Virus record (IMG/VR): IMGVR_UViG_2547132272_000014
Source: a virus
Taxonomy: Duplodnaviria; Heunggongvirae; Uroviricota; Caudoviricetes
Direction: 5' to 3' (one strand)
Length of the DNA stretch: 20,767 nt
Positions 2,502 to 5,600 of this stretch are shown piece after piece. The number at the start of each line of letters is the position of its first letter. Positions within the stretch are counted from its first letter, which is position 1. The translations under genes and the position numbers were made by a program. The notes below the pieces were generated by a model that was given only the letters and a program-made list of their open reading frames with translations, was not told where the DNA came from and did no database searches.

Positions 2502-2517
2502 TGGCATAGCCCTTGCT
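2502..2517 (+). promoter_or_regulatory. sigma54 (RpoN) -24/-12 promoter for prpB-prpC
   Basis: TGGCATAGCCCTTGCT fits TGGCAC-N5-TTGCW (GG at 2503-2504, GC at 2515-2516); lies about 50 bp upstream of the prpB start and next to the divergent sigma54 activator gene prpR. Confidence 0.7.
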
Positions 2518-2563
2518 TTGTGTTTATCAACGAAAATAACAAGTTGATAACAAAGGATGGGCT

Positions 2564-3454
2564 ATGTCTCTACACTCTCCAGGTAAAGCGTTTCGCGCCG
2601 CACTCTCCAAAGAAACTCCGTTGCAAATTGTTGGCACCATTAACGCCAACCATGCGTTGTTGGCGCAGCGTGCCGGATATCAGGCGATTTATCTCTCCGG
2701 TGGTGGCGTGGCGGCAGGTTCGCTGGGGCTACCCGATCTCGGTATTTCTACCCTTGATGATGTGCTGACCGATATTCGGCGTATCACCGACGTTTGCTCG
2801 CTGCCGCTGCTGGTTGATGCCGATATCGGCTTTGGCTCTTCGGCCTTTAACGTGGCGCGTACTGTGAAATCGATGATTAAAGCCGGTGCGGCAGGATTGC
2901 ATATTGAAGATCAGATCGGCGCGAAACGCTGCGGTCATCGTCCGAACAAAGCGATCGTCTCGAAAGAGGAGATGGTTGATCGGATCCGCGCGGCGGTGGA
3001 TGCGAAAACCGATCCTGATTTTGTGATCATGGCGCGCACCGATGCGCTGGCAGTGGAAGGTCTGGACGGCGCGATCGAACGCGCGCGAGCCTATGTTGAA
3101 GCCGGTGCCGAGATGCTGTTCCCGGAGGCGATTACTGAACTCGCCATGTACCGCCAGTTTGCCGATGCGGTGCAGGTGCCAATCCTCGCCAACATTACCG
3201 AATTTGGCGCCACGCCCCTGTTCACCACCGATGAATTACGCAGCGCCCATGTCGCAATGGCGCTGTACCCGCTTTCAGCATTCCGCGCCATGAACCGCGC
3301 CGCTGAACATGTCTACAACATCCTGCGCCAGGAAGGCACGCAGAAAAGCGTGATCGACACCATGCAGACCCGTAACGAGTTGTACGAAAGCATCAACTAC
3401 TACCAGTACGAAGAGAAGCTCGACGACCTGTTTGCCCGTAGCCAGGCGAAATAA
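2564..3454 (+). CDS. prpB: 2-methylisocitrate lyase, 296 aa
   Basis: ORF 2564..3454 with AAGGATGG upstream; isocitrate lyase/PEP mutase family signatures (KRCGH catalytic loop, EDQ motif); recognised as E. coli PrpB. Confidence 0.9.
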
Positions 3455-3487
3455 ACAAACGTCTGGTGGTTGTATTCGACAACCGAT

Positions 3488-3574
3488 GCCTGATGCGCCG
3501 CTGACGCGACTTATCAGGCCTACGAGGTGTACTGAACTGTAGGTCGGATAAGACGCATGGCGTCGCATCCGACA
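3488..3574. repeat. Pair of inverted REP elements (BIME-like) in the prpB-prpC spacer
   Basis: gcctgatgcgccgctgacgcgacttatcaggcctac (3488-3523) and gtaggtcggataagacgcatggcgtcgcatccgaca (3538-3574) are REP-consensus sequences in opposite orientation. Confidence 0.5.
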
Positions 3575-3615
3575 ACAATCTCGACCCTACAAATGATAAC
3601 AATGACGAGGACAAC

Positions 3616-4650
3616 ATGAGCGACACAACGATCCTGCAAAACAGTACCCATGTCATTAAACCAAAAAAATCTGTGGCACTTTCTGGCGTTCCGGCGGGTA
3701 ACACCGCGCTTTGTACCGTAGGCAAAAGCGGCAACGACCTGCACTATCGCGGCTACGATATTCTCGATCTCGCAGAACATTGCGAATTTGAAGAAGTGGC
3801 GCATCTGCTGATCCACGGCAAACTGCCGACCCGTGACGAACTCGCCGCTTACAAAACGAAACTGAAAGCCCTGCGCGGTTTACCGGCTAACGTGCGTACC
3901 GTGCTGGAGGCTTTACCTGCGGCGTCGCACCCGATGGATGTTATGCGCACCGGCGTTTCCGCGCTCGGCTGCACGCTGCCGGAAAAAGAGGGGCACACCG
4001 TCTCCGGCGCGCGGGATATTGCCGACAAACTGTTGGCGTCGCTGAGTTCGATTCTTCTCTACTGGTATCACTACAGCCACAACGGCGAACGCATCCAGCC
4101 GGAAACCGATGACGACTCTATCGGCGGTCACTTCCTGCATCTGCTGCATGGTGAAAAGCCGTCGCAAAGTTGGGAAAAGGCGATGCAAATTTCGCTGGTG
4201 CTGTACGCCGAGCATGAGTTTAACGCCTCCACCTTTACCAGCCGGGTGATTGCGGGCACCGGCTCTGATATGTATTCAGCCATTATCGGCGCGATTGGTG
4301 CACTGCGCGGGCCGAAGCACGGCGGGGCGAATGAAGTGTCACTGGAGATCCAGCAACGCTACGAAACGCCGGACGAAGCCGAAGCGGATATCCGCAAGCG
4401 CGTGGAAAACAAAGAAGTGGTGATTGGTTTTGGCCATCCGGTTTATACCATCGCCGACCCGCGCCATCAGGTGATCAAGCGTGTGGCGAAGCAGCTCTCG
4501 CAGGAAGGCGGCTCGCTGAAGATGTACAACATTGCCGATCGCCTGGAAACGGTGATGTGGGAGAGCAAAAAGATGTTCCCCAATCTCGACTGGTTCTCCG
4601 CTGTTTCCTACAACATGATGGGCGTTCCCACCGAGATTGTGGGGTGGTGA
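3616..4650 (+). pseudogene. prpC: 2-methylcitrate synthase prpC, 3'-truncated by prophage insertion
   Basis: Translation matches PrpC (citrate synthase family) through ...[13 protein letters not shown]. As I recall it, intact PrpC continues [14 protein letters not shown]... for about 45 more residues; here the frame reads IVGW-stop, encoded by the first bases of the prophage end. Chromosome/prophage junction is at 4637/4638. Confidence 0.75.
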
Positions 4651-4800
4651 TCAATTCTGGGCGGAGTTCGTGCAGCCTGGTAGAACCTGCAAGCCTTGTG
4701 TGGCGCGGGGTGTGGTGATTTAGTGTGATTCTGGGCGGATTTGTGAGAAATGACCAAAAACGCTTTTTTTTGCGCTTTTTTCTGGGCGCTTTTGATCTGG
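4645..4800 (+). repeat. Left-end array of three direct repeats, candidate transposase-binding sites (analogous to Mu L1-L3)
   Basis: TTCTGGGCGG at 4655-4664 and 4729-4738, and TTCTGGGCGC at 4780-4789; the first two sit in longer matching contexts GGTGAT...ATTCTGGGCGGAnTTnGTG. Offsets of about 18, 92 and 143 bp from the terminus resemble the Mu attL layout. Confidence 0.5.
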
Positions 4801-4949
4801 TTCTGCTACAAACTTAACGGGTTTTAAATGCTTTTAAAAAGTGTTTTATCCTTGCCCGTTTTCCTCAATTTGTTCTCATCTGTTGTGTTCGGTTTTGTTG
4901 TGGTTATTGCTGATTAGCTAACAGCATACGCCCCGCCAAAACGAGGCGC

Positions 4950-5600
4950 TTATGCTGATTTCTTGTTTACAGGCTTCGTTTCTTGCTCCGGCGTGGCAAC
5001 GGTCTGACCACCTGGCGACCTAGCTCGTATATGAGATTCGATGCGGCGCAAAATCTCTTTGTCAATTTCTTCGTTACCATCTAATGCCATACATATGGCG
5101 TCTTTTAGCGATTCCCTGATGTTCAGGCTTCTGATGGCATTCTCCTGTTCGTCTAGGTCGTTGTAGGCCTGTTTCGCTTGCCTGGTGGGTTGTTGTAGGC
5201 GTTCCAGGACTCCTTTGATACCAATACAACAAAGCATATCAATAAGACGCTCTCTATCTTCTGGAGCGGCTCGTCTTAGTATTTCGTCAACAATACTTGT
5301 ATCGGGGCGGTTAACGTCTTCTGTAGTCACCCTTGATTTTTCTACCATTGGAACACTTCTGTTCTCACCGTAGACCAGCCATTCCAGTGATACATTCTCT
5401 AATTTTGCTATTGTAGCGACCACATTTAGGCCAGGTGTCGTGCCTTTTTCAAAGTAGTTATTTATGGTCGAGTACGGTAATCCCCAGTCTGAGGTGGCTT
5501 TACGCAGGCTCCTGGTGCCAATCAGTTGTTTGATTCTGTCTTGAATGCTTTCTTTTCTATCCTGAGAAAAGGAAAAATCATCAGCGATTTGTTTACTCAT
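4950..5600 (-). CDS. Prophage repressor candidate, N-terminal HTH (XRE/CI-like), 216 aa
   Basis: Minus-strand ORF divergent from ner; AGGA upstream of ATG 5600 on the minus strand; N-terminal segment LRKATSDWGLPYSTINNYFEKGTTPGLNVVATIAKLENVSLEWLVYGE looks like a CI/C2-type helix-turn-helix; no obvious S24 peptidase motif in the C-terminal half. Confidence 0.6.
   Translation of the reverse strand: MSKQIADDFSFSQDRKESIQDRIKQLIGTRSLRKATSDWGLPYSTINNYFEKGTTPGLNVVATIAKLENVSLEWLVYGENRSVPMVEKSRVTTEDVNRPDTSIVDEILRRAAPEDRERLIDMLCCIGIKGVLERLQQPTRQAKQAYNDLDEQENAIRSLNIRESLKDAICMALDGNEEIDKEILRRIESHIRARSPGGQTVATPEQETKPVNKKSA

What the first reader, a model, noticed from the sequence alone, without database searches (positions are those of the whole stretch)
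2502..4950. Host sigma54/PrpR-controlled promoter is aimed into the prophage, antisense to the repressor gene
The prpB promoter reads through prpB and truncated prpC directly into the prophage left end. I see no convincing intrinsic terminator between the prpC stop (4650) and the repressor gene (4950-5600, minus strand). Induction of the prp operon could therefore produce antisense transcription across the repressor gene. This is speculative.
Basis: inference. Interest (0 to 1): 0.4.

Follow-up and report, generated by a model that had tools for sequence, protein, structure and literature searches.

The report
Mu-like prophage inserted into prpC
A Mu-like transposable prophage has landed by chance inside the host's propionate-utilisation gene prpC so that the propionate promoter points into it, but the insertion destroys the enzyme that makes that promoter's inducer and the same geometry is common and tolerated in related lysogens, so this is most likely an ordinary accident and not a regulatory link.

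Summary
An intact prpR, a sigma-54 -24/-12 element (2502-2517), prpB and a prpC cut at codon 341 of 389 run into the left end of a Mu-like prophage (starts at 4638, TGTGGGG...). Its repressor gene (4950-5600) lies on the opposite strand. No canonical intrinsic terminator lies in between. The functional idea is weak. (1) PrpR needs 2-methylcitrate, which PrpC makes, and PrpC is the gene destroyed. (2) After the stop at 4650 the RNA is untranslated for over 1 kb and has C>G stretches, so Rho polarity is expected. (3) This prophage family sits at many different sites in 59 of 5426 complete E. coli genomes. In 9 of 24 classifiable independent insertions a host gene reads into the left end in the same way, with no significant orientation bias. 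(4) None of these genomes has the prpC site, so nothing suggests an evolved coupling. Verdict: an accidental polar insertion of a known kind. Interest is low. No experiment was possible.

The parts
739..2325 (-). prpR, the sigma-54-dependent activator of the prp operon. It is intact: 528 aa from the ATG that aligns with K-12. The mechanical ORF runs on to 2394.
   Evidence: Pfam PrpR_N, Sigma54_activat, AAA_lid_14 and HTH_8. 497 of 528 residues identical to K-12 PrpR.
2369..2392 (.). Inverted repeat GTTTCAT-N10-ATGAAAC upstream of the promoter, followed by further GAAAC repeats to about 2430. Probably the PrpR enhancer site.
   Evidence: Read directly from the sequence. Conserved with K-12. 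Assignment as a PrpR site rests on my own knowledge of the Salmonella/E. coli prp promoter and was not tested.
2502..2517 (+). Sigma-54 -24/-12 promoter element of prpBCDE (TGGCATAGCCCTTGCT).
   Evidence: One mismatch to TGGCAC-N5-TTGCW. Same position as in K-12.
2564..3454 (+). prpB, 2-methylisocitrate lyase, intact.
   Evidence: Pfam PEP_mutase and ICL. 289 of 296 residues identical to K-12 PrpB.
3455..3615 (.). prpB-prpC spacer with one REP-like unit of about 103 bp (3474-3576). K-12 has three tandem copies.
   Evidence: blastn of the window against K-12 gives three matches for 3474-3576.
3616..4650 (+). Truncated prpC. Host codons 1-340 (to 4637) are fused to 13 nt of prophage and end ...PTEIVGW*.
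   Evidence: Alignment with K-12 prpC: first mismatch at window 4638, which is prpC nt 1023. Pfam Citrate_synt covers only profile positions 2-327 of 357.
4638..4638 (.). First base of the prophage left end (5'-TG...).
   Evidence: 25 related prophage left ends at different chromosomal sites all begin TGTGGGGT(A/G)GTGATCAATTCTGG, with unrelated DNA to the left.
4654..4797 (+). Three direct repeats containing TTCTGGGCG (4654-4672, 4728-4746, about 4779-4797). Probably the transposase-binding sites of attL.
   Evidence: TTCTGGGCG occurs 3 times within 150 bp, against 0.2 expected in the whole window. All three change together to TTCTGGAC/T in L014 and L022. The function is inferred by analogy with Mu L1-L3.
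4764..4793 (+). T8 run, then the weak hairpin GCGCUU-UUUUCU-GGGCGC (4772-4789), then UUUU. Marginal terminator candidates.
   Evidence: dG -8.5; d=-5.7 and -13.9. The stem is broken in L009, L016, L014 and L022 and overlaps the third repeat, so it is not a conserved structure.
4922..4969 (.). Conserved hairpin (4922-4957) containing the repressor stop codon. On the plus strand AUUUCUUGUUUA follows (4958-4969). It is the 3' hairpin of the repressor mRNA and a possible partial terminator for incoming plus-strand transcription.
   Evidence: dG -17.6 on the plus strand and -23.4 on the minus strand. Three base pairs show compensatory double changes among 7 variants. On the plus strand 90.8% of cells pair. 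By hand count, all nine unpaired cells are C.A or A.C, which become G.U in the repressor-sense RNA. The terminator score is below threshold here (d about -21) but reaches +1.9 in sister variants L006 and L015, which have UUUUUU.
4950..5600 (-). Prophage repressor gene (216 aa, CI-type HTH).
   Evidence: Pfam Phage_CI_repr, E=4e-6. Its position is divergent from ner-A-B, as in Mu. It is not detectably homologous to Mu c.
5601..5768 (.). A+T-rich divergent regulatory region between the repressor and ner. Presumed operators and promoters.
   Evidence: GC 0.31-0.35. Inferred by analogy with Mu. No strict sigma-70 consensus was found.
5769..6005 (+). ner-like gene.
   Evidence: Pfam HTH_35. 43% identity to Mu Ner.
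6005..8047 (+). Mu-type DDE transposase (A).
   Evidence: Pfam Mu-transpos_C, HTH_Tnp_Mu_1 and rve. Best phage match is 49% identical.
8066..8959 (+). MuB-like AAA+ target-capture ATPase (B).
   Evidence: Pfam AAA_22 and TniB.

Best explanation
This is the chance product of a Mu-like transposable prophage inserting into prpC, in the orientation where the host prpBCDE promoter faces the prophage left end. It is a polar insertion, not a regulatory device.

In this lysogen the PrpR/sigma-54 promoter should be largely uninducible, because the insertion removes the C-terminus of PrpC, the enzyme that synthesises PrpR's co-activator 2-methylcitrate. It is also expected to be polar on prpD and prpE. 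The right end and the downstream genes are not in the window.

Any RNA polymerase that does start at 2517 loses its ribosome at the stop codon at 4648-4650. It then crosses more than 1 kb of untranslated RNA. On the way it meets two weak hairpin/U-run sites in attL (4735-4793), the conserved hairpin plus U-rich tract at the end of the repressor gene (4922-4969), and C>G stretches suited to Rho loading. Little or no antisense transcription is therefore expected to reach the 5' part of the repressor gene or the ner-A-B genes.

Shown: the anatomy, the junction, the conservation of the hairpin, the lack of orientation bias among relatives, and the absence of this site in other genomes. Inferred: loss of inducibility, Rho termination and partial intrinsic termination.
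For: Junction and truncation:
- Host DNA ends at 4637, which is prpC codon 341 of 389.
- The Pfam citrate-synthase profile is cut at position 327 of 357.
- The lost segment (...[29 protein letters not shown]...) holds the two conserved substrate-binding arginines of citrate synthases (my own knowledge).

Inducer:
- 2-methylcitrate, made by PrpE and PrpC, is the co-activator PrpR needs (PMC5566544; PMC6379400).

Random insertion:
- The same prophage family is in 59 of 5426 complete E. coli genomes at many different sites. None is in prpC (no place covers 80% or more of the junction query).

Orientation survey:
- A host gene reads into the left end in 9 of 24 classifiable independent insertions: ycgB, ypdF, phnJ, chbG, ytfQ, PAAR, an scpC-like gene, a P2-like tail gene and the operon downstream of DUF987.
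- It reads away in 15. Binomial p=0.31.
- The nearly identical prophage (99.2%) sits in read-in orientation in ycgB in three mouse E. coli genomes.

Attenuation:
- There are hairpin/U-tract candidates on the plus strand.
- The 4922-4957 hairpin is conserved with compensatory changes.
- The plus strand has C/G>1 from about 4920 to 5400, with 30% C and 14% G at 5320-5400.
- Rho polarity on untranslated RNA, and Rho suppression of antisense and prophage transcription, are established (PMC12360218).
Against: - No intrinsic terminator in 4650-4969 passes the score threshold in this particular variant, so some read-in is physically possible.
- The first 150 nt after the stop codon are G-rich (C/G about 0.4), which is poor for Rho loading. 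The best rut-like stretch lies well inside the repressor gene, so antisense RNA over its 3' half cannot be excluded.
- From my own knowledge, citrate synthase GltA can make some 2-methylcitrate and Acs can make propionyl-CoA. Residual induction is therefore conceivable.
- The orientation survey is small. The 95% CI for the read-in fraction is 0.19-0.59, so a modest depletion cannot be ruled out.
- No transcript data were available.
Confidence: 0.7

Rival explanations
1. Propionate, acting through PrpR and sigma-54, drives transcription through prpB and the prpC stump into the prophage. Convergent or antisense transcription lowers repressor expression, so propionate raises spontaneous induction.
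For: The geometry is correct, and prpR, the enhancer-like repeats and the -24/-12 element are intact. No above-threshold intrinsic terminator lies between 4650 and the repressor gene in this variant. PprpB can be a strong promoter when induced (PMC5566544).
Against: - The inducer-synthesising enzyme is the gene that was disrupted.
- Sigma-54 promoters are essentially silent without an activated enhancer-binding protein (established knowledge).
- The RNA is untranslated for more than 1 kb and exposed to Rho.
- A conserved hairpin plus U-rich tract lies at 4922-4969.
- Read-in orientation is common among stable natural lysogens of the family.
- The site is unique, so there is no sign of selection for this coupling.
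Confidence: 0.08
2. The conserved hairpin at 4922-4957 with its downstream U-rich tract is an evolved, inward-facing insulator. Transposable phages land in random transcription units, so a terminator placed just outside the immunity gene would shield the repressor and early region from host read-in wherever the phage inserts.
For: - The hairpin is conserved with three compensatory pairs.
- The U-rich tract is on the incoming strand, not on the repressor-sense strand.
- In sister variants it is the top-scoring terminator candidate of the left end (d=+1.9 in L006 and L015).
- In a distant relative (L032) and in Mu itself, the best-scoring incoming-strand candidate also sits at the repressor stop codon.
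- Engineers add exactly such terminators to mini-Mu units to block chromosomal read-through (PMC3145075).
Against: - Pairing is better in the repressor-sense RNA. By hand count, 96 of 98 cells pair there against 89 of 98 on the incoming strand. This points to selection on the 3' end of the repressor mRNA.
- The U tract is simply the Lys-Lys codons of a conserved C-terminal peptide...KKSA* here...KKTA* in L032...KKAV* in Mu. Coding constraint therefore explains it.
- In this window's variant the score is below threshold.
- In L032 the U run is 11 nt from the stem, and in Mu the hairpin is very weak.
Confidence: 0.2
3. Read-in transcription matters, but not through the repressor. It either crosses the attL transposase-binding sites and hinders transpososome assembly, which lowers induction, or it continues as sense RNA into ner-A-B and bypasses repression at the early promoter, which raises induction.
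For: The plus strand is the sense strand for ner, A and B. The three putative transposase sites lie directly in the path. Transcription through mini-Mu ends is reported to interfere with transpososome assembly (PMC3145075).
Against: The same objections about promoter inducibility and Rho or hairpin attenuation apply. Reaching ner requires more than 1.1 kb of untranslated read-through. There is no orientation bias in natural insertions.
Confidence: 0.04

Closest known systems
Bacteriophage Mu prophage: left end and immunity/early region (attL L1-L3, c, ner, A, B) and its polar insertions into host operons
   Same: - 5'-TG end and three repeated sites within about 160 bp of the end.
- A repressor gene transcribed towards the left end, with divergent ner, DDE transposase A and AAA+ B.
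- Insertion at essentially random chromosomal sites in both orientations.
- Disruption of the target gene.
   Different: - The repressor is a CI-type HTH protein with no detectable similarity to Mu c.
- The transposase is under 50% identical to any sequenced phage in the collection, and megablast finds no phage match.
- A stable conserved hairpin closes the repressor gene here, whereas Mu has only a weak one.
prpBCDE promoter of E. coli/Salmonella (PrpR, sigma-54, 2-methylcitrate as co-activator; the basis of pPro expression vectors)
   Same: Divergent prpR, GAAAC-containing upstream repeats, a GG-N10-GC element and prpB directly downstream. All are conserved with K-12.
   Different: Here the operon is interrupted inside prpC, so the pathway that generates the co-activator is broken. 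The host DNA is only about 91.5% identical to E. coli.
Transcriptional interference between convergent promoters in temperate phages (for example coliphage 186 pR/pL) and antisense control of repressors
   Different: In those systems both promoters are phage-encoded, closely spaced and co-evolved. Here the interfering promoter is a host promoter 2.4 kb from the repressor gene's 3' end, placed there by a unique random insertion.
Rho-dependent polarity and Rho/NusG protection of foreign DNA from transcriptional invasion
   Same: A premature stop (4648-4650) is followed by long untranslated RNA running antisense through horizontally acquired DNA. This is the situation in which Rho terminates (PMC12360218).
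   Different: Not demonstrated here. The first 150 nt are G-rich and the rut-like stretches are only moderate.

Membership tests
PrpR/sigma-54-dependent prpBCDE promoter | A -24 GG / -12 GC element with the correct spacing upstream of prpB | tested here: met
   TGGCATAGCCCTTGCT at 2502-2517 has one mismatch to the consensus and aligns with the K-12 element.
PrpR/sigma-54-dependent prpBCDE promoter | Divergent gene for an enhancer-binding protein with PrpR_N, AAA+ sigma-54 interaction and HTH_8 domains | tested here: met
   94% identity to K-12 PrpR.
PrpR/sigma-54-dependent prpBCDE promoter | Activation by 2-methylcitrate produced through PrpE and PrpC | not testable with these tools
   The literature says this is required. 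In this locus prpC is truncated at codon 341, so the supply is probably lost. This is an inference.
Mu-like transposable prophage (left end) | DDE transposase with Mu-specific domains, plus a MuB-like ATPase and a Ner-like regulator next to a divergent repressor | tested here: met
Mu-like transposable prophage (left end) | A defined end starting 5'-TG, with repeated transposase-binding sites | tested here: met
   The end was mapped at 4638 from 25 independent junctions. There are three TTCTGGGCG repeats. Binding itself was not tested.
Mu-like transposable prophage (left end) | Insertion at many unrelated sites (transposition, not site-specific integration) | tested here: met
   25 different flanking genes in complete E. 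coli genomes.
Mu-like transposable prophage (left end) | 5-bp target-site duplication at both ends | not testable with these tools
   The right end is not in the window or in the IMG/VR contig it matches.
Intrinsic (Rho-independent) terminator acting on plus-strand read-in between 4650 and the repressor gene | A stable G+C-rich stem-loop immediately followed by a U tract, scoring above threshold | tested here: not met
   Best candidates: d=-5.7 (4735-4763), -13.9 (4772-4789) and about -21 (4922-4957). Only six sites in the window have d>0. Sister variants of the third hairpin reach d=+1.9.
Intrinsic (Rho-independent) terminator acting on plus-strand read-in between 4650 and the repressor gene | Structure conserved among relatives, with compensatory changes | tested here: inconclusive
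   Met for 4922-4957 (three compensatory pairs), but pairing favours the opposite (repressor-sense) strand. Not met for 4772-4789.
Convergent-transcription / antisense control of a phage repressor | An active interfering promoter whose transcripts traverse the repressor gene or its promoter | not testable with these tools
   Needs transcript mapping. The indirect evidence is against it.
Convergent-transcription / antisense control of a phage repressor | The arrangement is conserved or selected among relatives | tested here: not met
   The prpC site is unique. Orientation among relatives is 9 against 15, not different from random.

The most novel reading that the evidence does not exclude
The conserved hairpin that contains the repressor stop codon (4922-4957), together with the U-rich tract that follows it on the incoming strand, is a dual-purpose element. 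It would be the 3' end of the repressor mRNA and also an inward-facing insulator that lets a randomly inserting phage keep its immunity region quiet inside any host operon. In this variant the weakened U tract would make the insulator leaky, leaving room for host-promoter effects on lysogeny.
Probability: 0.15. Interest if true: 0.45.

Novelty: new member of a known kind. Interest (0 to 1): 0.15.

Why it matters
That would be a neat example of how transposable phages could acquire new induction cues. The evidence points instead to a routine polar insertion that knocks out propionate catabolism. Three results are of practical use. The left end of this uncharacterised but fairly common enterobacterial Mu-like prophage lineage (about 1% of complete E. 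coli genomes) is now mapped to the base. Its putative transposase sites and a conserved hairpin at the end of the repressor gene are identified. And read-in orientation shows no detectable counter-selection in nature.

Tried and rejected
- Rfam at gathering thresholds over the whole window: no hit.
- Megablast of the prophage left 3.5 kb against sequenced phages: no match. Only protein-level hits below 50% identity were found.
- Search for the repressor in one-genome-per-species contigs: only a truncated Edwardsiella locus, so neither the source genome nor the right end was recovered. IMG/VR gave the identical contig but without the right end.
- Hairpin 4772-4789 as a real terminator: rejected as a conserved structure. 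It overlaps the third transposase-site repeat and is broken in several relatives.
- Orientation bias as evidence of counter-selection against read-in: 9 against 15, p=0.31, not significant.
- Whole-region fold of 4638-4960: no more stable than shuffles (z=-0.81).
- Primary papers on PrpR and 2-methylcitrate (Tsang 1998; Palacios and Escalante-Semerena 2000) are not in the library, so I relied on two secondary sources.
- Literature searches for host read-through into Mu prophages found nothing specific.
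Full report
**What is there**

The window starts in host DNA. It carries a yahO-like gene, then prpR on the minus strand (739-2325; PrpR_N, sigma-54 interaction and HTH_8 domains). A divergent regulatory region follows, then prpB (2564-3454), a REP-like spacer, and prpC from 3616.

A sigma-54 -24/-12 element, TGGCATAGCCCTTGCT, lies at 2502-2517. It aligns with the corresponding K-12 sequence, as do the upstream GAAAC repeats.

Alignment with K-12 shows that host DNA stops at 4637. This is prpC nucleotide 1022, codon 341 of 389. The reading frame runs 13 nt further and stops at 4648-4650.

From 4638 the DNA is the left end of a Mu-like transposable prophage:
- Twenty-five related prophages at unrelated chromosomal sites all begin TGTGGGGT(A/G)GTGATCAATTCTGG at that base.
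- Three TTCTGGGCG repeats lie within the first 160 bp.
- A CI-type HTH repressor gene lies on the minus strand (4950-5600).
- A Ner homologue (43% identical to Mu Ner), a Mu-type DDE transposase and a MuB-like ATPase follow on the plus strand.

The window is 100% identical to an IMG/VR contig over the part held. The host flank is only about 91.5% identical to E. coli. So the anatomical part of the finding is correct.

**Terminators**

The pattern scan finds one plus-strand candidate between the prpC stop and the repressor gene: GCGCUU-UUUUCU-GGGCGC plus UUUU at 4772-4793 (dG -8.5).

I scored every hairpin/T-tract combination in the window with a d'Aubenton-Carafa-type discriminant. Only six sites in 20.8 kb, counting both strands, have d>0, and all are deep inside the prophage. 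In the left end the scores are:
- d=-5.7 for 4735-4763 plus a T8 run, with a very weak stem.
- d=-13.9 for 4772-4789.

That third element is a 36-nt hairpin at 4922-4957 (dG -17.6 on the plus strand, -23.4 on the minus strand). It contains the repressor stop codon. On the plus strand AUUUCUUGUUUA follows it.

The 4772-4789 stem overlaps the third transposase-site repeat and is broken in several relatives, so it is not a conserved structure.

The 4922-4957 hairpin is conserved. Among seven distinct variants, three base pairs show compensatory double changes, and the covariation score exceeds all 500 shuffles and all slid controls. By hand count, all nine non-pairing cells on the plus strand are C.A or A.C. 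These become G.U in the repressor-sense RNA, so that strand pairs in 96 of 98 cells. Selection therefore seems to act mainly on the 3' end of the repressor mRNA.

The U-rich tract lies on the incoming strand only. It is encoded by the Lys-Lys codons of a conserved C-terminal peptide...KKSA* here...KKTA* in a 59%-identical relative...KKAV* in Mu. In sister variants with UUUUUU the element reaches d=+1.9 and is the best terminator candidate of the left end. In this window's variant it is weaker.

'No convincing intrinsic terminator' is thus a fair description of the window. But three marginal sites in series, one of them a genuine conserved hairpin at the very spot, make appreciable attenuation plausible.

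**Is the promoter still inducible?**

PrpR activates the sigma-54 promoter only with 2-methylcitrate, which is made from propionate by PrpE and PrpC (PMC5566544; PMC6379400).

The insertion removes the last 49 residues of PrpC. The Pfam citrate-synthase profile is cut at position 327 of 357. The lost segment (...IARVTGW...IIRPSANY...) contains, from my knowledge of citrate synthases, two conserved substrate-binding arginines. Because Mu-type insertions are polar, prpD and prpE downstream should also be silent. That part is not in the window.

So the event that aims the promoter at the prophage most probably also deprives the promoter of its inducer. From my own knowledge, residual 2-methylcitrate from GltA cannot be excluded.

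**Rho**

After the stop codon at 4650 the plus-strand RNA has no credible translated ORF for more than 1.1 kb. It is G-rich for the first 150 nt. From about 4920 to 5400 it has C/G>1, with 30% C and 14% G at 5320-5400. The 4750-4900 stretch is A+T-rich (GC 0.37).

Untranslated RNA, antisense RNA and horizontally acquired DNA are the established substrates of Rho/NusG termination (PMC12360218). I therefore expect any read-in to die out within or before the repressor gene and not to reach ner-A-B. This is an inference.

**Comparative test**

The same prophage family occurs in 59 of 5426 complete E. coli genomes, at many different sites. No genome has the prpC junction.

I fetched 25 independent insertions and classified the host gene at the left end:
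- It reads into the prophage, as in the window, in 9: ycgB, ypdF, phnJ, chbG, ytfQ, a PAAR gene, an scpC-like gene, a P2-like tail gene and the operon downstream of a DUF987 gene.
- It reads away in 15.
- One insertion, in the melR/melA spacer, is ambiguous.

Nine of 24 does not differ from one half (p=0.31; 95% CI 0.19-0.59). The nearly identical prophage (99.2%) is in read-in orientation in ycgB in three mouse E. coli genomes.

Read-in geometry is therefore a common, tolerated outcome of random insertion. The sample is too small to exclude a mild bias.

**Conclusion**

The finding describes a real arrangement, but it is best explained as an accidental polar insertion of a Mu-like prophage into prpC. 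The proposed propionate-to-repressor antisense link is possible in principle. It is undercut by loss of the inducer-forming enzyme, by expected Rho polarity, by a conserved hairpin/U-rich element at the end of the repressor gene, and by the lack of any sign of selection. I put about 0.08 on it.

The most interesting residue is the possibility (about 0.15-0.2) that the repressor-terminal hairpin doubles as an inward-facing insulator for a phage that inserts at random. Coding constraint and the strand asymmetry of pairing argue against this, and only a reporter assay can settle it.

Two related effects deserve mention. Plus-strand read-in would be sense for ner-A-B. It would also cross the attL transposase sites, where transcription is reported to disturb transpososome assembly in mini-Mu systems (PMC3145075).

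Noticed in passing
window 4950-4969; L036 (Mu) 339-360; L032 about 3110-3133: The repressor ends ...PVNKKSA*. A 59%-identical relative ends ...LTVKKTA* and Mu c ends ...QEVKKAV*. The V-x-K-K-x-A/V* tail is shared although this repressor shows no detectable homology to Mu c. From memory, in Mu this tail governs ClpXP recognition. The shared tail may mean a shared degradation-based induction route.
   Followed up: partly
window 4922-4957: The repressor stop codon and the last two codons lie inside the 3' arm of a stable conserved hairpin. If transcripts end in or near it, non-stop or 3'-trimmed repressor mRNAs, and hence tmRNA tagging, are conceivable.
   Followed up: no
window 4654-4797; L014 and L022 about 2017-2160: The three TTCTGGGCG(G) repeats of the left end change together to TTCTGGAC/T in two relatives. 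This looks like co-variation of transposase-binding sites with transposase specificity.
   Followed up: partly
window 4638-5700 compared with the hits: Many relatives match only the first 480-600 nt (left end plus the repressor C-terminal part) at 80-92% identity and then diverge. This suggests mosaic immunity types: variable N-terminal DNA-binding domain and operators, conserved C-terminal domain and attL. It resembles the Mu/D108 relationship.
   Followed up: no
window 4790-4920; L006, L007, L019-L021: The T-rich spacer between the third repeat and the repressor hairpin is replaced in some relatives by an unrelated sequence of similar composition with a 21-nt insertion. Its function is unknown.
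   Followed up: no
window 3474-3576: The prpB-prpC spacer holds one REP-like unit of about 103 bp, where K-12 has three tandem copies. In published read counts for strain LF82, reads per nucleotide are several-fold lower for prpC-E than for prpB (my division of the counts by gene length). That would be consistent with natural attenuation or differential mRNA stability at this spacer.
   Followed up: partly
window 1-4637: The host flank is only about 91.5% identical to E. coli genomes at the DNA level, while the retained 340 PrpC residues are all identical to K-12. The first 375 nt do not align with K-12. The host may be a divergent Escherichia lineage. The window is identical to IMG/VR contig IMGVR_UViG_3300026224_000011.
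   Followed up: partly
window 15083-15100, 14557-14574, 15889-15925: Strong canonical intrinsic terminators lie inside the prophage. The first is a perfect bidirectional one, GCCCCACC-CAGG-GGTGGGGC with T runs on both sides. They are the top-scoring sites in the window.
   Followed up: no
window 10784-10799 (minus strand), 16999-17014 (plus strand): Two further one-mismatch matches to the sigma-54 consensus lie inside the prophage. Three matches in the window is within chance expectation (10 of 100 shuffles reach three matches).
   Followed up: no
L007 (E. coli Eco_23-3571) 3386-4220; L009 (TUM9812) 3365-4586; L024 (SA53-3) 3386-4485: Some relatives are degraded. The transposase gene is truncated, replaced by host or other phage DNA, or interrupted by an IS3-family element. 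Not all counted insertions are active prophages.
   Followed up: no
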